Virus record (IMG/VR): IMGVR_UViG_3300045988_149498
DNA: 64,000 bases
Direction: 5' to 3' (one strand)
Source of the DNA: a virus
Lineage: Duplodnaviria; Heunggongvirae; Uroviricota; Caudoviricetes
Made by a program: the position numbers and the translations under genes. This document shows, in pieces, positions 12,625 through 57,977 of the stretch. Each line of letters begins with the position of its first letter. The stretch's first letter is position 1. The notes under the pieces were generated by a model. That model searched no databases, was not told the origin of the DNA, and was given only the letters and a program-made list of their open reading frames with translations.

Positions 12625-12799
12625 GTATTTTTAAGTCACGAATGCTATCTTTTCGCATCATATTGACCTTTTAATCGTTCAGGCTTATAGTTCCGCCGTC
12701 GTAGCAAATTCTGCGACCAGGTTTGACAGCCTGAATGATTGTGCGGACAACCGCAGATTTCCGATATTGCGGTATTTTTGTGTCCGTTAAACCGCGTTA

Positions 12800-12880
12800 C
12801 GCCCAAATTATGGTGGGGCGTGATGGGGAGGCTTCGGCCTGCTGGTTTCACAATCGCCAGTCTGTCAACCCTGTCACGTC
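12800..12880 (+). ncRNA. c4: c4 antisense repressor RNA (approximate position)
   Basis: Segment between two direct repeats (GTTTGACAGC...GATTGTG at ~12721 and ~12891) contains complementary CTGTCAA and CACAATC elements, as in the P1 c4 model. Boundaries are approximate. Confidence 0.35.
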
Positions 12881-12938
12881 CTGCCACCTGTTTGACAGCG
12901 GGTAGCAGGTTGTTAAACCTGATTGTGAGGCCGTAACT

Positions 12939-15194: not shown

Positions 15195-16040
15195 ATGCTG
15201 GCTAAAGTCACTTTCCTGAGCTGTATAACGATGAGCGATTTTACTTTTTCTGGCTATGAATTGGCCTGCTTTGTAACACACTCCGGTCTATCCCGTAGCG
15301 CCGGGCATATCCTGTCGCAATGTGCAAATCTCGCGGCAACAACCAGTGAATACTTCATTCACAAGCCTCACCGCCTGATCGCGGCAGAAACTGGTTATAG
15401 CCAATCAACCGTCGTTCGTGCATTCCGTGAAGCTGTAAACAAAGGAATTCTGTCTGTAGAGATTGTTATCGGCGATCACCGTGAACGTCGCGCTAACCTG
15501 TACCGGTTTACACCATCCTTTTTGGCCTTCGCACAACAAGCCAAAAATGCGCTGATTGAAAGCAAATTAAAGATCTCTTCAGCGGCAACCAAGGTTAAAG
15601 CTGTTCTCGCTAAGACATTGGCTTTATTTAATTTTTTATCCACACCCCCATGTCAAAATGATACCCCCTCCCCCTGTCAGGATGACGTGGCAATAAAGAA
15701 TAAGAAGTCACAAGTTAAAAAAACAAAAAGATCAGTTTCCGGCGGTGCCGGAACGACCAGACTCAAAAAATTGACTTCATGGATCGCTGAGGCAAAAGCA
15801 AAGGCTGACAATCTGCGGTTATCCAAAAAACGCGCTCAAAAACATGAGTTCAAGCAGAAGGTAGAGGCGGCAGCGCGGAAATATGCTTACCTGAAGAACA
15901 AGCGTTCTCCTGATATTGGCGGGGTATCAAACTTCGATAATCTGCCGCATTGCATGACGGTAAACGAAGCTCTTAATGCGGTTTTAGCCAAAAATAAAGA
16001 TAACGAACAATGGGGTATACCGGCAGGATTCAGAGGGTGA
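15195..16040 (+). CDS. repL: RepL lytic replication initiator, 281 aa
   Basis: 281-aa ORF downstream of kilA under a C1 operator; RepL-family features; the lytic origin is expected within the gene. Confidence 0.7.
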   Translation: MLAKVTFLSCITMSDFTFSGYELACFVTHSGLSRSAGHILSQCANLAATTSEYFIHKPHRLIAAETGYSQSTVVRAFREAVNKGILSVEIVIGDHRERRANLYRFTPSFLAFAQQAKNALIESKLKISSAATKVKAVLAKTLALFNFLSTPPCQNDTPSPCQDDVAIKNKKSQVKKTKRSVSGGAGTTRLKKLTSWIAEAKAKADNLRLSKKRAQKHEFKQKVEAAARKYAYLKNKRSPDIGGVSNFDNLPHCMTVNEALNAVLAKNKDNEQWGIPAGFRG

Positions 16041-16090
16041 TAGATTGCTCTAATCTGGAGTCACCTGGCGTTTTCAGTTTGAGGTCGGAG

Positions 16091-16336
16091 ATGCAATCTG
16101 ATTTTTTACAGTTAGCGATCGCTTTTGCAGGATATGTTTGTATTGGCTTCTGTGTATACATGTTCAGCCGAAAAATGCTTGTCGATATCGACCGCAAAGA
16201 ACAAGCAGAGGAGATCTTAGTATGGATTTTCTTTGGCGCGGTCTGGCCATTAGGGATCATGTTTGCTGCAACATTTCTTCTGATGTGGATATTCACCCTT
16301 CCAGGTGATTTCTATAGAAAAAAAGCCAGACATTGA
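16091..16336 (+). CDS. Small two-helix membrane protein, ~81 aa
   Basis: Start refined to an ATG preceded by GAGGTCGGAG; two hydrophobic helices (LAIAFAGYVCIGFCVYMF, GAVWPLGIMFAATFLLMWIF). Confidence 0.4.
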   Translation: MQSDFLQLAIAFAGYVCIGFCVYMFSRKMLVDIDRKEQAEEILVWIFFGAVWPLGIMFAATFLLMWIFTLPGDFYRKKARH

Positions 16337-16439
16337 TACAATCGTTGCGGGTGCTTGAGGCTATCTGCTTCAGGCATGACCCGAAAAGCAGATAGAAGAA
16401 AGCCCCAGATAACATTACGCGTCCTGCAAGACGCTTAAC

Positions 16440-16520
16440 ATTAATCTGAGGCCATATCTATGCTTAGCATACGTAGATTAGCCTCTTACCGACCAAAAGG
16501 TCAAGGAGAAGCAGGCTATG
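16440..16520 (-). ncRNA. Sok-like antisense RNA (position inferred, not resolved)
   Basis: Inferred from hok/mok architecture only; promoter not confidently identified. Confidence 0.2.
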
Positions 16521-16666
16521 AAGCAGCAAAAAGCGATGTTAATCGCTCTGATCGTCATCTGTTTAACCGTCATTGTGACGGCACTGGTAACGAGGAAAGA
16601 CCTCTGCGAGGTACGAATCCGAACCGGCCAGACGGAGGTCACTGTCTTCACAGCCTACGAATCTGA
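16460..16666 (+). CDS. mok-like overlapping reading frame of the hok locus
   Basis: 68-codon ORF beginning upstream of, and overlapping, the hok frame, as in hok/mok loci. Confidence 0.35.
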   Translation: MLSIRRLASYRPKGQGEAGYEAAKSDVNRSDRHLFNRHCDGTGNEERPLRGTNPNRPDGGHCLHSLRI

Positions 16667-16673
16667 AAGGTAA
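16518..16673 (+). CDS. hok: Hok/Gef-family type I toxin, 51 aa
   Basis: MKQQKAMLIALIVICLTVIVTALVTRKDLCEVRIRTGQTEVTVFTAYESER aligns with Hok (LTRKSLCEIRYRDG...EVAAFMAYES); AAGGAG Shine-Dalgarno site; 3' hairpin GGCGGGGA-gtga-TCCCCGCC at 16681-16700. Confidence 0.8.
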   Translation: MKQQKAMLIALIVICLTVIVTALVTRKDLCEVRIRTGQTEVTVFTAYESER

Positions 16674-17027
16674 GAGACCTGGCGGGGAGTGATCCCCGCC
16701 ACTCTTCGTGTGTCTGGTAACCTCAATGCACCCTTTTCTCCCCAATAGTGTAAAACACAATGAAGTAGAAGGAGTTATTTCACATCATGCAAAGATTCAG
16801 ACCATATCTCCCAATAGCCTTCGCGACATGATGACTTTCAGAAATATCTAGCTGTTAACAAAATTCCATACTTGCTTTGCTAATACCACCTAGATTATAT
16901 ATGGAAAAATACACCTAAAACTTAAACAAATTATATCCACAACAAACATCCATCTATTAGGATTAAAATTAATTTAATAATAAATAATACAACACCGGTT
17001 CATTTTCTAACAAACCGGTGGGCACCA

Positions 17028-18020
17028 TTATTGGAATAACTTACTGATTACATTAAAAACATTAAGGGCGTTACTTGCCACACTAGACATCTTGGCTGAA
17101 TTTTTTTCGATTGAGTCAAGAACACTTTCGACTTCCGATAAAGTTCTTCTGCTATCTGCATCTTTTCCTGAGTCTATCGCATCTTTAATTGCAGATATAG
17201 CAGACTCTAAATTCTCCTTAAACTCACCTGTCGTCTCATCCTTCAAGAGAAGTTCTAACTCTTGTTTAAGTTTTTCCAATGATGCTCTTTTCTCATCAGT
17301 TTTACTAATCTTCCCTGAATAACTGACACAAACACATTCTCTTTTATTGCAGACAGGACAACCATTTAGATAATAACTTTCAAACGCCTCGCCAAGATCA
17401 TCATCTTTAAAAATAATCCCCCATAAAGAAAACAACCAAGCATATATATCAGCACACTCTTCATGAAGATTTTCTTTGTTGTAATTTTTATCTTCAATTG
17501 ATTTAGCATAAGCCTCTTGCAACTCACCCAACTCTTCGAATAACCTGGATGAATGATAAAACCCACCAAAAGTAGACCAAATGGTTCTATTCGACGGATA
17601 GATATCATTAATCATTCGTGGCGCATAAGGCGGAAATTGCATAGGTTTAATAGCGTTATATTTATTGAAAAGCTCATCTTTAATTCCTTTTGCGCTTCTT
17701 ATTTTCTCTGGCTTTCTGTGTGTTTGAGAACAGGAACAAGGCGCCCCTAAGCAATAAGGACAGCAACTAGGGAATTTTTTATAAAATGCTTCCTGTGGTT
17801 GTATTTCAAGTTTATCACAGATTGCAAAAAGCCAAGACAATGCTTCTATATAGGTATTTTTTAATAATTCTTTATCCTGATTACCATCACGAATAAACTC
17901 ACGTGTTAAATAAGCTGTTTTCCTTGTCAGATAAGAGTACATATACTCAAATGATTTTTCTTCATTTTTTTTGCTGTAAATACCTACAATAATATTGCTC
18001 ATATCATTGATACGTAACAT
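17028..18020 (-). CDS. Tandem MazG-like (all-alpha NTP pyrophosphohydrolase-like) protein with two CxxC-type zinc ribbons and acidic coiled-coil tail, ~330 aa
   Basis: Low-GC gene. Start refined to ATG preceded by AAGAGGAA. Motifs FEELGELQEAYA and HEECADIYAWL, plus a degenerate first copy; CPYCLGAPCSC and CPVCNKRECVC; terminator hairpin at ~17000-17030. Confidence 0.55.
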   Translation of the reverse strand: MLRINDMSNIIVGIYSKKNEEKSFEYMYSYLTRKTAYLTREFIRDGNQDKELLKNTYIEALSWLFAICDKLEIQPQEAFYKKFPSCCPYCLGAPCSCSQTHRKPEKIRSAKGIKDELFNKYNAIKPMQFPPYAPRMINDIYPSNRTIWSTFGGFYHSSRLFEELGELQEAYAKSIEDKNYNKENLHEECADIYAWLFSLWGIIFKDDDLGEAFESYYLNGCPVCNKRECVCVSYSGKISKTDEKRASLEKLKQELELLLKDETTGEFKENLESAISAIKDAIDSGKDADSRRTLSEVESVLDSIEKNSAKMSSVASNALNVFNVISKLFQ

Positions 18021-18317
18021 GACATTCCTCTTAAATAAGCCAATACTTCCTAGAACCATATATGCTTCGACAAAGATTAACGGACATCTTGCCTTCACAA
18101 ACTTTGACGCTACATAAATTTAACCATGTGCATACTAAATATTTAAGGTAGAAAAGTATAGGAGTATTTATTAATAGGTAACTGTTAGTTTACACTCACT
18201 TCATACCAGAGTATTTACAAGATGTTATTTTACTCTATTCGCTAGGCGGTGGAATGCGGTTGTATCAAGGGGAGGTAAACCTCCCCCGAAGAAGATTAAA
18301 AGTACAAGGGATAACAC

Positions 18318-33800: not shown

Positions 33801-33876
33801 GATGGTGTAGCTCAGCGGTTAGAGCGGTTGACTGTTAATCAACGGGTCGATGGTTCAAATCCATCCACCATCGCCA
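33801..33876 (+). tRNA. tRNA-Asn (anticodon GTT)
   Basis: 76-nt cloverleaf: 7-bp acceptor stem GATGGTG/CACCATC, anticodon loop CTGTTAA, T-loop TTCAAAT, 3' CCA encoded. Confidence 0.85.
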
Positions 33877-33878
33877 AT

Positions 33879-33954
33879 GCCGGTTTAGCTCAGTTGGTAG
33901 AGCGCCTGCCTTGTAAGCAGGATGTCAGCGGTTCGAGTCCGTTAACCGGCACCA
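33879..33954 (+). tRNA. tRNA-Thr (anticodon TGT)
   Basis: 76-nt cloverleaf: acceptor GCCGGTT/AACCGGC, anticodon loop CTTGTAA, T-loop TTCGAGT, CCA encoded. Confidence 0.85.
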
Positions 33955-35738: not shown

Positions 35739-35814
35739 GGCCCTTTAGCTCAGTGGTTAGAGCTGGCGACTCATAATCGCACGGTCACCGGTTCAAGTCC
35801 GGTAGGGGCCACCA
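35739..35814 (+). tRNA. tRNA with CAT anticodon (Met or lysidine-modified Ile)
   Basis: 76-nt cloverleaf: acceptor GGCCCTT/AGGGGCC, anticodon loop CTCATAA, T-loop TTCAAGT, CCA encoded. Confidence 0.8.
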
Positions 35815-57375: not shown

Positions 57376-57597
57376 ATGCAATCCATTAACTTCCGTACCG
57401 CGCGCGGCAACCTTTCTGAAGTGCTCAACAATGTTGAAGCCGGGGAAGAGGTTGAAATCACCCGCAGAGGCCGTGAGCCAGCAGTAATTGTCAGTAAGGC
57501 TACTTTCGAAGCCTACAAAAAAGCGGCGCTGGATGCTGAATTTGCATCCCTGTTTGACACCCTGGACTCCACCAACAAGGAACTGGTTAACCGATAA
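57376..57597 (+). CDS. phd: Phd antitoxin, 73 aa
   Basis: [39 protein letters not shown]... matches P1 Phd as recalled; coupled to doc. Confidence 0.9.
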
Positions 57598-57977
57598 TGA
57601 GGCATATATCACCGGAAGAACTTATTGCGCTTCATGATGCGAATATAAACCGCTACGGCGGCCTGCCGGGAATGTCAGATCCGGGTAGGGCAGAGGCCAT
57701 TATCGGGAGAGTTCAGGCCAGAGTTGCCTACGAAGAGATCACCGACCTTTTCGAAGTCTCCGCCACCTACCTGGTGGCTACAGCGAGAGGGCATATATTC
57801 AATGATGCCAATAAGCGTACCGCGCTAAACAGTGCGCTGTTATTTCTACGCCGTAACGGGGTGCAGGTATTTGATTCACCTGAACTGGCAGACCTTACCG
57901 TAGGGGCTGCGACCGGAGAGATATCTGTATCTTCTGTCGCCGACACGTTACGTAGATTGTATGGTTCTGCGGAGTAG
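57597..57977 (+). CDS. doc: Doc toxin (Fic-fold kinase), 126 aa
   Basis: [25 protein letters not shown]...[15 protein letters not shown] matches P1 Doc as recalled. Confidence 0.9.

What the first reader, a model, noticed from the sequence alone, without database searches (positions are those of the whole stretch)
16430..16710. hok/mok/sok-like type I toxin-antitoxin locus in the P1-like backbone, in addition to phd/doc
A 51-aa ORF (MKQQKAMLIALIVICLTVIVTALVTRKDLCEVRIRTGQTEVTVFTAYESER) aligns with Hok/Gef toxins. A 68-codon overlapping frame begins upstream, as mok does, and a GC hairpin follows the stop, as the fold-back element does. As far as I recall, P1 itself relies on phd/doc for addiction, so a second post-segregational killing system here is notable. 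It lies next to the low-GC MazG-like gene, suggesting a small accessory island.
Basis: partly seen in the sequence, partly recalled or inferred. Interest (0 to 1): 0.45.

Follow-up and report, generated by a model that had tools for sequence, protein, structure and literature searches.

The report
Intact hok/mok/sok killer locus, already known
This is a complete, ordinary copy of the well-known hok/sok "kill cells that lose the plasmid" module, which most P1-type phage-plasmids carry and databases already annotate, so it is real but not new.

Summary
Window 16518-16673(+) encodes a 51-aa Hok/Gef toxin (Pfam 2.4e-22). A 68-codon mok frame starts 58 nt upstream, as in R1. Rfam's sok/hok-leader model matches 16349-16523 at 113.9 bits.

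The locus is larger than reported, about 16315-16737. It contains every regulatory element defined for R1 hok/sok: promoter, tac, ucb, mok SD, dcb, hok SD, a 3' protective hairpin, the fold-back inhibitor fbi (16721-16733), and a convergent Sok gene with a positionally conserved promoter and terminator-like hairpin.

It is not novel. About 477 plasmid records carry it at >=95% identity, against about 516 with P1-type repL. RefSeq annotates it as hokD, and 4722 of 5426 complete E. coli genomes hold a relative. Reference P1 is the exception, with rlfA/rlfB in this slot.

The MazG-like neighbour occurs in only 17 plasmids and is a separate insertion. Side finding: nearly half of the plasmid copies are interrupted in the 3' hairpin, and the two examined carry IS186; this copy is intact.

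The parts
16315..16342 (+). hok (mok-hok) mRNA promoter: -35 TAGAAA (16315-16320), 16-nt spacer, extended -10 TGaTACAAT (16334-16342)
   Evidence: Consensus scan, 9/12 matches with TG. The -10 ends 7 nt before the first position of the Rfam leader model at 16349. The -10 lies inside the block conserved with 933W hokW, where it reads TAGAAT. Activity is inferred.
16349..16736 (+). Full-length mok-hok mRNA, about 385-388 nt. The 5' end is set by the Rfam model start and the 3' end by the end of fbi plus a U-run. The exact 3' end is not determined.
   Evidence: The block conserved with 933W hokW runs about 16346-16733. Rfam RF01794 covers 16349-16523, model positions 1-157. MFE -156 kcal/mol, z -7.5.
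16349..16360 (+). tac (translational activator element), GGGUGCUUGAGG, at the 5' end of the mRNA
   Evidence: Pairs with fbi in the MFE of the full-length RNA: 12 bp with one bulge. It is the best partner of the 5' end in 8 of 8 loci. RNAalifold recovers the helix, and pair 4/420 is UA in 4 loci and CG in 4. 91.7% of cells are paired against 25-60% when slid.
16401..16407 (+). ucb (upstream complementary box, the anti-SD of mok), AGCCCCA
   Evidence: Pairs with the mok SD in the full-length MFE. Pairs with tac in the RNAalifold consensus (cols 8-14 with 71-77) and in the 92-nt nascent fold. Definition from PMC9841398.
16398..16468 (-). Sok antisense RNA gene, about 71 nt. Its 5' tail is complementary to the mok start codon and SD; a long hairpin follows, then UUUCUUC.
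   Evidence: Coordinates transferred from the annotated sokW misc_RNA of phage 933W (L002 654-724) through the alignment. The fold is -31.3 kcal/mol, z -5.3. It lies within the Rfam RF01794 match. Expression was not tested.
16475..16504 (-). Sok promoter: -35 TTGACC (16504-16499), 18-nt spacer, -10 TAATCT (16480-16475), start near G16468
   Evidence: Read from the minus strand. It is positionally conserved in all 8 aligned hok loci: TTG is invariant, and the -10 is TAnnCT in 7 of 8. The generic scan did not call it because the -10 matches only 3/6. Activity is inferred.
16448..16452 (+). mok Shine-Dalgarno, GAGGC, ending 7 nt before the mok AUG
   Evidence: Sequence. Sequestered by ucb in the full-length MFE. 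Pairs with dcb in the RNAalifold consensus.
16460..16666 (+). mok leader reading frame, 68 codons. It starts 58 nt before the hok AUG and is out of frame with hok.
   Evidence: ORF list. No Pfam family. The 58-nt offset equals that of R1, where the mok AUG is at 116-118 and the hok AUG at 174-176 according to PMC9841398. Its start codon aligns with the mokW start in 933W.
16481..16485 (+). dcb (downstream complementary box), GCCUC, within the near-invariant UAGCCUCUUAC. It lies in the spacer of the Sok promoter on the other strand.
   Evidence: RNAalifold pairs cols 121-125 (mok SD) with 155-159. PMC9841398 places dcb in the Sok promoter region.
16503..16508 (+). hok Shine-Dalgarno, AAGGAG
   Evidence: Sequence. 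CAAGG.GAAG is invariant in the 8-locus alignment.
16518..16673 (+). hok toxin gene, 51 aa
   Evidence: Pfam HOK_GEF 2.4e-22. PHROG 251, 4.9e-32. Identity is 48/51 to K-12 HokD, 47/51 to HokW, 41/51 to HokC and 28/51 to R1-type Hok. RefSeq WP_001313475.1 is named 'type I toxin-antitoxin system toxin HokD' in an identical plasmid.
16680..16701 (+). 3' stem-loop UGGCGGGGA-GUGA-UCCCCGCCA. It corresponds to the last stem-loop of the processed mRNA and is also an IS186 target in sister plasmids.
   Evidence: Present in the full-length and truncated folds. Conserved with compensatory changes in the alignment. Its role in protecting against 3' exonucleases in R1 comes from PMC9841398. IS insertion with target duplication 16685-16696 in L012.
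16721..16733 (+). fbi (fold-back inhibitory element), CCUCAAUGCACCC
   Evidence: Pairs with tac. Homology to hokW and hokC ends here.

Best explanation
This is an intact member of the hok/mok/sok family of type I toxin-antitoxin loci, of the prophage/chromosomal hokD-hokW subtype, sitting in a variable slot of a P1-type (IncY) phage-plasmid between repL and bplB.

Proposed mechanism. The anatomy is shown; the dynamics are inferred from R1.
1. A promoter at 16315-16342 makes a stable mok-hok mRNA of about 385 nt.
2. In the full-length RNA, the 5' tac (16349-16360) pairs with the 3' fbi (16721-16733), and the mok SD is held by ucb. The RNA is therefore neither translated nor bound by Sok.
3. Slow 3' trimming back to the GC hairpin (16680-16701) removes fbi and lets the leader refold. 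This exposes the mok SD and the Sok target.
4. While the plasmid is present, the short-lived Sok RNA (minus strand, about 16468-16398) pairs across the mok SD and start codon, and the duplex is destroyed.
5. In a cell that has lost the plasmid, Sok decays. mok is then translated, hok is translated by coupling, and the 51-aa membrane toxin kills the cell.

The locus thus adds a second, RNA-based addiction module to the protein-based phd/doc at 57376-57974.
For: Toxin: Pfam HOK_GEF 2.4e-22; PHROG 'MokW-like host killing' 4.9e-32; 48/51 identity to K-12 HokD and 47/51 to HokW.

Leader and Sok: Rfam RF01794 at 113.9 bits, E 3.8e-25, full model. 87.8% DNA identity to the 933W hokW/mokW/sokW locus over exactly the mRNA span, where sokW is annotated.

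tac-fbi: 12-bp pairing in the MFE, z -7.5. It is the best partner of the 5' end in 8 of 8 loci, at mRNA positions 346-395. RNAalifold finds it independently with a UA<->CG compensatory pair. 91.7% of cells are paired against 25-60% in slid registers.

Other elements: mok SD-ucb pairing in the full-length fold. tac/ucb and SD/dcb helices in the consensus fold, matching the element definitions in PMC9841398. mok-hok offset of 58 nt, as in R1. Sok promoter hexamers positionally conserved in 8 loci. Sok hairpin z -5.3.

Intactness and spread: there is no IS in the 3' hairpin, unlike nearly half of sister copies. Sequence is identical in several plasmids and >=95% identical in about 477 plasmid records.
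Against: Nothing here is experimental. Neither the two promoters, nor Sok, nor 3' processing, nor toxicity was measured.

The Sok -10 (TAATCT) matches the consensus at only 3 of 6 positions with an 18-nt spacer, and the generic promoter scan did not call it.

Single-sequence folding of the 3'-truncated RNA does not give the published open conformation. It keeps the mok SD on ucb and puts tac in a local hairpin.

Covariation support for tac-fbi rests on one compensatory pair that separates two clades, so it counts as one or a few events.

Many chromosomal relatives of this subtype are thought to be inactive, and nearly half of the P1-plasmid copies are interrupted in the 3' hairpin, by IS186 in the two examined. 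That could mean the module is often dispensable or costly.
Confidence: 0.85

Rival explanations
1. Decayed relic: the sequence is hok-derived but no longer functions, as proposed for the K-12 chromosomal hok loci, and is carried passively in the P1-type backbone.
For: Relatives are mostly chromosomal: 10172 of 10728 places in complete E. coli genomes. K-12 hokD has lost its leader, since only 71 nt separate relE from hokD. K-12 gef/hokC carries IS186 that disrupts fbi (PMC3562002). About 194 of 417 plasmid copies are interrupted in the 3' hairpin. Some P1-like plasmids have deleted hok altogether.
Against: In this copy every element is intact and in register: both ORFs are open, both SDs are present, tac-fbi pairs over 12 bp, ucb and dcb are present, the Sok hexamers are closer to consensus than those of sokW, and there is no IS. 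The whole mRNA span is conserved at 98-100% in hundreds of plasmids.
Confidence: 0.08
2. The molecular mechanism is the same, but the selected function is phage exclusion or abortive infection rather than plasmid maintenance. Shut-off of host transcription by an infecting phage would let Sok decay and Hok kill the cell. From my own knowledge, R1 hok/sok has been reported to exclude T4.
For: The subtype is typical of prophages (933W, Rac, Qin, lambdoid phages) rather than conjugative plasmids. PHROGs files it under 'moron, auxiliary metabolic gene and host takeover'. The element already has phd/doc and a partition system for maintenance. It sits in a cargo slot that also takes a MazG-like gene.
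Against: There is no direct evidence here. PADLOC was not queried with Hok itself, and the neighbours gave no defence-family hits. A second addiction module is common on low-copy plasmids. The two roles are not mutually exclusive.
Confidence: 0.12
3. Chance: a small hydrophobic ORF and a GC hairpin with no relation to hok.
For: None beyond the small size of the ORF.
Against: Pfam E 2.4e-22, Rfam E 3.8e-25, and 87.8% DNA identity to the annotated hokW locus across about 390 nt.
Confidence: 0

Closest known systems
hokW/mokW/sokW of Shiga-toxin phage 933W (AF125520) and the same locus in many lambdoid, Rac and Stx prophages
   Same: 87.8% DNA identity over exactly the mRNA span, from tac to fbi. 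The toxin is 47/51 identical. The tac is the same (GGGUGCUUGAGG), fbi differs by one base, and the Sok position is the same, with the promoter at the homologous place.
   Different: In 933W a 1-nt deletion puts mokW in frame with hokW (start codons 57 nt apart). Here mok is out of frame, 58 nt apart, as in R1. The Sok promoter here has TTGACC/TAATCT with an 18-nt spacer, against TTGCCT/TAACCT with 17 nt. The host replicon is a P1-type plasmid prophage, not an integrated lambdoid prophage.
hokD (relF) of the E. coli K-12 Qin prophage, the name RefSeq gives this protein
   Same: The toxin is 48/51 identical.
   Different: K-12 hokD starts 71 nt after relE, so it cannot hold the ~170-nt leader with tac, ucb, mok and Sok. 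The window locus is complete. The shared name reflects protein similarity only. NCBIfam gives only sub-threshold hits to the Hok subfamily and HokA models.
hok/sok (parB) of plasmid R1 and the Hok loci of IncF/IncI conjugative plasmids
   Same: The same architecture and the same set of elements (tac, ucb, mok SD, dcb, hok SD, 3' hairpin, fbi, convergent Sok). The mok-hok offset is 58 nt in both. The same Rfam family matches at 88.9-105 bits in IncF, IncI2 and Klebsiella loci.
   Different: The toxin is only about 28/51 identical (tblastn 35-45%). DNA is too diverged for blastn. tac-fbi uses GGCGC/GCGCC instead of GGGUGC/GCACCC. The leader hairpin is about 17 nt longer in the R1 type, and the Sok-target hairpin is about 14 nt longer here.
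gef/hokC-sokC of E. coli K-12 with IS186 downstream
   Same: 75% DNA identity, 41/51 aa, the same tac, and the same 18-nt Sok promoter spacer. Sister P1-type plasmids carry a 1338-bp IS186/IS421 in the hok 3' hairpin. K-12 gef carries a 1338-bp IS186 downstream that disrupts fbi (PMC3562002).
   Different: The window copy has no IS, and its hairpin and fbi are contiguous.

Membership tests
hok/mok/sok type I toxin-antitoxin family (R1 parB type) | Small Hok/Gef membrane toxin (about 50 aa; N-terminal transmembrane segment; conserved Cys and C-terminal YE motif) | tested here: met
   Pfam PF01848 at 78.7 bits against a cut-off of 22, E 2.4e-22, full profile. PHROG 251 at 4.9e-32. Identity 48/51 to HokD.
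hok/mok/sok type I toxin-antitoxin family (R1 parB type) | Overlapping mok leader frame with its own SD, starting upstream of hok, through which hok is translated | tested here: met
   ORF 16460-16666, 68 codons. SD GAGG at 16448-16451. Start 58 nt before the hok AUG, as in R1. The start codon aligns in all 8 loci. Translational coupling itself was not tested.
hok/mok/sok type I toxin-antitoxin family (R1 parB type) | Cis-encoded Sok antisense RNA covering the mok translation-initiation region, with its own promoter and terminator | tested here: met
   Rfam RF01794 at 113.9 bits against a gathering score of 59. Homologous to the annotated sokW. The -35/-10 are conserved in position in 8 loci. 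Hairpin plus U-rich tail, z -5.3. These are sequence-level tests only; transcription was not tested.
hok/mok/sok type I toxin-antitoxin family (R1 parB type) | Long-range tac-fbi pairing between the 5' and 3' ends of the full-length mRNA | tested here: met
   12-bp helix 16349-16360 with 16721-16733 in the MFE. Best partner of the 5' end in 8 of 8 loci. Recovered by RNAalifold with a compensatory UA/CG pair. 91.7% paired against 25-60% when slid.
hok/mok/sok type I toxin-antitoxin family (R1 parB type) | ucb and dcb boxes that alternately pair with the mok SD and tac (closed and open conformations) | tested here: inconclusive
   Closed state met: the mok SD pairs with ucb in the full-length MFE. 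The tac/ucb and SD/dcb helices appear in the RNAalifold consensus and tac/ucb appears in the nascent fold. However, the MFE of the truncated RNA does not switch to the open form.
hok/mok/sok type I toxin-antitoxin family (R1 parB type) | Stable 3' stem-loop that ends the processed mRNA, just upstream of fbi | tested here: met
   9-bp GC hairpin at 16680-16701 in every fold. The helix is conserved with compensatory changes. Its role in R1 comes from PMC9841398.
hok/mok/sok type I toxin-antitoxin family (R1 parB type) | Differential RNA stability (stable hok mRNA, unstable Sok), RNase III cleavage of the duplex, post-segregational killing | not testable with these tools
   Needs Northern blots or half-life measurements and plasmid-loss assays.
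HokD (RelF) equivalog, the name used by RefSeq | Orthology with K-12 hokD: same protein and same locus organisation downstream of relBE in Qin | tested here: not met
   The protein is 48/51 identical. The context differs, though: K-12 hokD follows relE by 71 nt and has no leader, while the window locus is autonomous with a full leader and Sok. NCBIfam gives no above-threshold equivalog: the Hok subfamily scores 49.5 against 73, and HokA 38.1 against 89.

The most novel reading that the evidence does not exclude
In P1-type phage-plasmids this hok/sok module may not be mainly an addiction system. It could be a switchable cargo gene whose 3' hairpin (GGGG-N6-CCCC) is a hot spot for IS186. Insertion there would uncouple fbi from the mRNA and so disarm post-segregational killing while keeping Sok-controlled hok. 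That nearly half of sister plasmid copies are interrupted there (IS186 in both examined), with at least two junction alleles, would then reflect repeated selection to switch the module off, or to retune it for phage exclusion. The intact copy in this window would be the 'armed' state.
Probability: 0.12. Interest if true: 0.4.

Novelty: already known. Interest (0 to 1): 0.12.

Why it matters
For this window it matters little. It shows that this P1-type plasmid has two addiction modules of different kinds, the RNA-controlled hok/sok and the protein-based phd/doc, which helps explain the stable carriage of such phage-plasmids, many of which carry resistance genes.

It also corrects a common assumption drawn from the reference P1 genome. 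Most sequenced P1-type plasmids have hok/sok where P1 has rlfA/rlfB.

The only point with some research value is the side finding. About half of these loci are interrupted at the same 3' hairpin, by IS186 in the two copies examined, and K-12 gef/hokC also carries an IS186 just downstream of the coding region. This offers natural armed and disarmed allele pairs for testing what fbi contributes in vivo.

Tried and rejected
(1) The generic sigma-70 scan found no minus-strand promoter. I rejected this as evidence against Sok, because the scan requires 4/6 in each hexamer and the homologous Sok -10 boxes are all TAnnCT.

(2) My first assignment of ucb and dcb was wrong: I had UAGCCUCUUACC as ucb, pairing with GGUAAGAG at the hok stop. 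I corrected it after reading the definitions in PMC9841398. That pairing does occur in the MFE, but it is not the named element.

(3) Folding the 3'-truncated RNA did not reproduce the published open conformation, so the switch is inferred by homology and not shown.

(4) blastn in distant mode did not reach R1-type loci, so I used tblastn with Hok instead.

(5) Two of the nine comparison loci (L007, L008) gave no Rfam leader hit and were left out of the alignment.

(6) Steif & Meyer 2012, 'The hok mRNA family', is not held.

(7) Literature searches linking P1-like elements with hok found no paper that describes this locus. One query using phd and doc as terms was swamped by unrelated papers. 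Two hits for hok + IS186 + IS150 were uninformative.

(8) The 'single accessory island with MazG' idea was rejected on distribution: 17 against about 477 plasmid records.

(9) Pfam and PADLOC gave nothing for the MazG-like protein or the upstream 108-aa ORF.

(10) The large protein homology searches and structure prediction were not used, because a 51-aa toxin with a full-length Pfam match did not need them.
Full report
WHAT IS THERE. The small protein matches Pfam HOK_GEF over the full profile (E 2.4e-22, 78.7 bits against a cut-off of 22) and PHROG 251 'MokW-like host killing' (4.9e-32). A scan of the whole window against Rfam gives a full-length match to RF01794 ('sok antitoxin') at 16349-16523, 113.9 bits against a gathering score of 59, E 3.8e-25. 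That match is on the + strand, and its last three model positions align with the hok AUG. What the model describes is therefore the hok mRNA leader, which contains the complement of Sok, and not the Sok transcript itself. The other Rfam hits (C4 antisense RNA, its a1/b1 targets, three tRNAs) and the flanking KilA, RepL, ParA/ParB/RepA genes show a P1-type (IncY) phage-plasmid.

EXTENT OF THE LOCUS. Alignment with the annotated hokW/mokW/sokW locus of phage 933W shows that similarity starts at about 16346 and stops at 16733. So the unit is about 16315-16737, not 16430-16710.
- Upstream there is a promoter-like site: TAGAAA, 16 nt, TGaTACAAT (16315-16342). Its -10 ends 7 nt before 16349, the first position of the Rfam model.
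- The mok SD (GAGG, 16448-16451) precedes the mok AUG at 16460.
- The hok SD (AAGGAG, 16503-16508) precedes the hok AUG at 16518.
- The two start codons are 58 nt apart. R1 has the same offset, with the mok AUG at 116-118 and the hok AUG at 174-176 (PMC9841398).

RNA ELEMENTS. The definitions come from Le Rhun et al. 2022 (PMC9841398):
- In the full-length mRNA, a tac/fbi stem joins the 5' and 3' ends, and the mok SD is sequestered by ucb.
- After 3' trimming, tac/ucb and mok-SD/dcb stems form. mok and then hok are translated, and Sok can bind.
- A last 3' stem-loop protects the trimmed RNA from exonucleases.

The MFE of the 388-nt RNA 16349-16736 (-156 kcal/mol, z -7.5, 0 of 100 shuffles as good) contains exactly the closed state. 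GGGUGCUUGAGG (16349-16360) pairs with CCUCAAUGCACCC (16721-16733) over 12 bp with one bulge, and GAGGC (16448-16452) pairs with GCC.C of ucb (16402-16406). It corresponds to the protective 3' stem-loop, not to the fold-back element.

IS tac-fbi MORE THAN ONE PREDICTED FOLD? I fetched hok loci spanning the family: 933W, a chromosome-like copy on pBone4, mokC/hokC, and IncF, IncI2, Klebsiella IncF and Enterobacter plasmids. I anchored their 5' ends with the Rfam model, which scored 88.9-120.5 bits.
- In all eight loci, the energetically best partner of the first 14 nt lies at mRNA position 346-395.
- RNAalifold on the eight-sequence alignment (A2, 70% mean column identity) recovers the helix on its own. 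Pair 4/420 is U-A in the four prophage/P1-type loci and C-G in the four conjugative-plasmid loci.
- An explicit count gives 91.7% of cells paired, against 25-60% when the 3' side is slid by 1-3 columns.
- This is one compensatory pair separating two clades, so it amounts to few independent events. Together with positional conservation it is still good support.
- The same consensus fold contains tac(8-14)/ucb(71-77) and mok-SD(121-125)/dcb(155-159), which are the helices of the open state.
- Limitation: the single-sequence MFE of RNAs truncated at 16702 or 16705 keeps the SD on ucb and places tac in a local hairpin. That resembles the published metastable 5' hairpin, not the open state. The switch itself is therefore inferred by homology.

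SOK. Transferring the annotated sokW coordinates (L002 654-724, minus strand) through the alignment gives about 16468 to 16398 on the minus strand.
- That RNA begins with a single-stranded tail complementary to the mok start codon and SD, followed by a long hairpin and UUUCUUC (-31.3 kcal/mol, z -5.3).
- Upstream on the minus strand are TTGACC (16504-16499), an 18-nt spacer, and TAATCT (16480-16475), six nt before G16468.
- The generic scan did not report this site, because the -10 matches only 3/6.
- The same two boxes occur at the homologous place in all eight loci: TTG is invariant, and the -10 is TAnnCT in seven of eight (TATCCT in the R1-like IncF locus). The window has the best -35 of the set.

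HOW IT MOST LIKELY WORKS. It should work as in R1. There would be a stable, inert full-length mRNA, slow 3' trimming to an active form, and continuous neutralisation by short-lived Sok while the plasmid is present. After plasmid loss, mok would be translated, then hok, and the cell would be killed. The presence, order and pairing potential of all parts are shown. Promoter activity, RNA half-lives, RNase III cleavage, toxicity and stabilisation are inferred. phd (57376-57594) and doc (57597-57974) are also in the window, so the element has two unrelated addiction modules.

COMPARISON WITH WHAT IS KNOWN. The toxin is 48/51 identical to K-12 HokD, 47/51 to HokW, 41/51 to HokC and about 28/51 to R1-type Hok. 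It therefore belongs to the prophage/chromosomal subtype, not the conjugative-plasmid subtype. RefSeq names it HokD. However, K-12 hokD lies 71 nt after relE with no room for a leader, so the name reflects the protein only. Unlike 933W, where a 1-nt deletion puts mokW in frame with hokW, the window keeps the R1-like out-of-frame arrangement.

NOVELTY. None.
- The 461-nt region matches 560 plasmid records (45 at >=99% and 432 at 95-99% identity), mostly non-mobilizable plasmids of about 90-100 kb, and 81 phage records.
- P1-type repL is found in 516 plasmid records, so hok/sok is the usual state of this slot. This is an approximate comparison, because the two sets were not intersected.
- Reference P1 and P7 are the exceptions, carrying rlfA-rlfB (rapA-rapB in P7) and pmgF between repL and bplB.
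- In complete E. coli genomes, 4722 of 5426 hold a relative at >=80% identity, with a median of two copies. 493 records hold one at >=95%.
- I found no open-access paper that discusses hok/sok specifically in P1-like elements, so it is known by annotation rather than by study.

THE 'ISLAND' IDEA. The low-GC stretch (30-37% over 16800-18300, against 44-49% in the flanks) encodes a 356-aa protein. RefSeq calls it MazG-like. It has only a weak PHROG hit to a nucleoside triphosphate pyrophosphohydrolase (4.3e-6), and no Pfam or PADLOC hit. This segment occurs in only 17 plasmid records. P1-like phages such as MH422554 have hok directly followed by pmgF/bplB. hok and the MazG-like gene are therefore independent modules that happen to be adjacent.

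SIDE FINDINGS.
(a) A probe across the hok 3' UTR (16640-16745) matches 417 plasmid records, but only 223 contiguously. In L012 the break is a 1338-bp element with terminal inverted repeats, an IS4-family transposase (named IS421 by RefSeq in L014), and a 12-bp target duplication GGGAGTGATCCC (16685-16696) in the loop of the 3' hairpin. K-12 gef/hokC has a 1338-bp IS186 downstream that is thought to disrupt fbi (PMC3562002). A second allele (L014) has the left duplication copy inverted, which is unexplained.
(b) Some P1-like plasmids keep only 16340-16483 (leader plus the Sok body, with the Sok -35 lost), followed by a different gene.
(c) Homology with reference P1 ends after ATTGCTCTAAT (16044-16054), inside the C1 operator Orlf/Op55 annotated in P1.

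VERDICT. This is a real, complete and correctly identified hok/mok/sok locus. It is already annotated and very common, so interest is low.

Noticed in passing
window 16685-16696 (target site); L012 4358-5695; L014 2258-3594: Nearly half of the sister plasmid copies of this hok locus are interrupted in the 3' GC hairpin: about 194 of 417 records matching a 3' UTR probe are not contiguous. In the two copies examined, the insert is a 1338-bp IS186/IS421 (IS4 family) with a 12-bp target duplication GGGAGTGATCCC. It separates fbi from the mRNA body, much as IS186 does next to gef/hokC in K-12. The window copy is uninterrupted.
   Followed up: partly
L014 2235-2260 and 3590-3615: In plasmid NZ_AP025221.1 the IS186 copy has the same position and orientation as in L012. 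However, the left copy of the target duplication is the reverse complement (GGGATCACTCCC) of the one in L012. This could be an independent insertion or an inversion of the palindromic target; it is unexplained.
   Followed up: no
L013 3001-3144 (equivalent to window 16340-16483): Some P1-like plasmids (e.g. NZ_CP148411.1, CP088789.1, NZ_CP021336.1) keep only the hok promoter, the leader and the Sok body, and lose the Sok -35, mok and hok. An unrelated 198-aa gene follows on the other strand. This looks like a recombination scar and shows the slot exchanges cargo.
   Followed up: partly
window 17028-18098 (-), low-GC block about 16800-18300: A 356-aa protein that RefSeq calls MazG-like sits in a 30-37% GC block found in only 17 plasmid records. 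It contains several CxxC motifs and a charged C-terminal tail. It has no Pfam or PADLOC hit, and only a weak PHROG hit to a nucleoside triphosphate pyrophosphohydrolase (residues 171-222). It is rarer and less understood than the hok locus beside it.
   Followed up: partly
window 16044-16060: Homology to reference P1 stops after ATTGCTCTAAT, inside the 17-bp C1 operator Orlf/Op55 that follows repL in P1. Only the left 11 nt of the operator are retained here, so the cargo-slot breakpoint lies within a repressor binding site.
   Followed up: partly
window 16010-16336 (+); RefSeq start equivalent to 16091: A small ORF (81 aa as annotated) lies between repL and hok and matches PHROG 3772, of unknown function, at 2.6e-53. 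It looks hydrophobic, is present in P1-like plasmids with and without hok, and is absent from reference P1. The hok -35 box overlaps its 3' end.
   Followed up: no
window 16349-16523: Rfam RF01794, named 'sok antitoxin', matches the strand that encodes hok, and its consensus ends at the hok AUG. It therefore models the hok mRNA leader (the Sok target), not the Sok transcript. Strand calls from this family should be read with that in mind.
   Followed up: yes
L002 716-928 versus window 16460-16673: In phage 933W a 1-nt deletion (GG-CAAGG against GGTCAAGG) puts the annotated mokW in frame with hokW, so that mokW is an N-terminally extended Hok. In the window, in hokC and in R1-type loci, mok is out of frame.
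   Followed up: partly
window 12685-12891, 33801-33951, 35739-35811: The P1 immI elements are present (C4 antisense RNA at 12806-12891 and its a1/b1 targets at 12685-12737), along with three tRNA genes, as expected for a P1-type genome.
   Followed up: no
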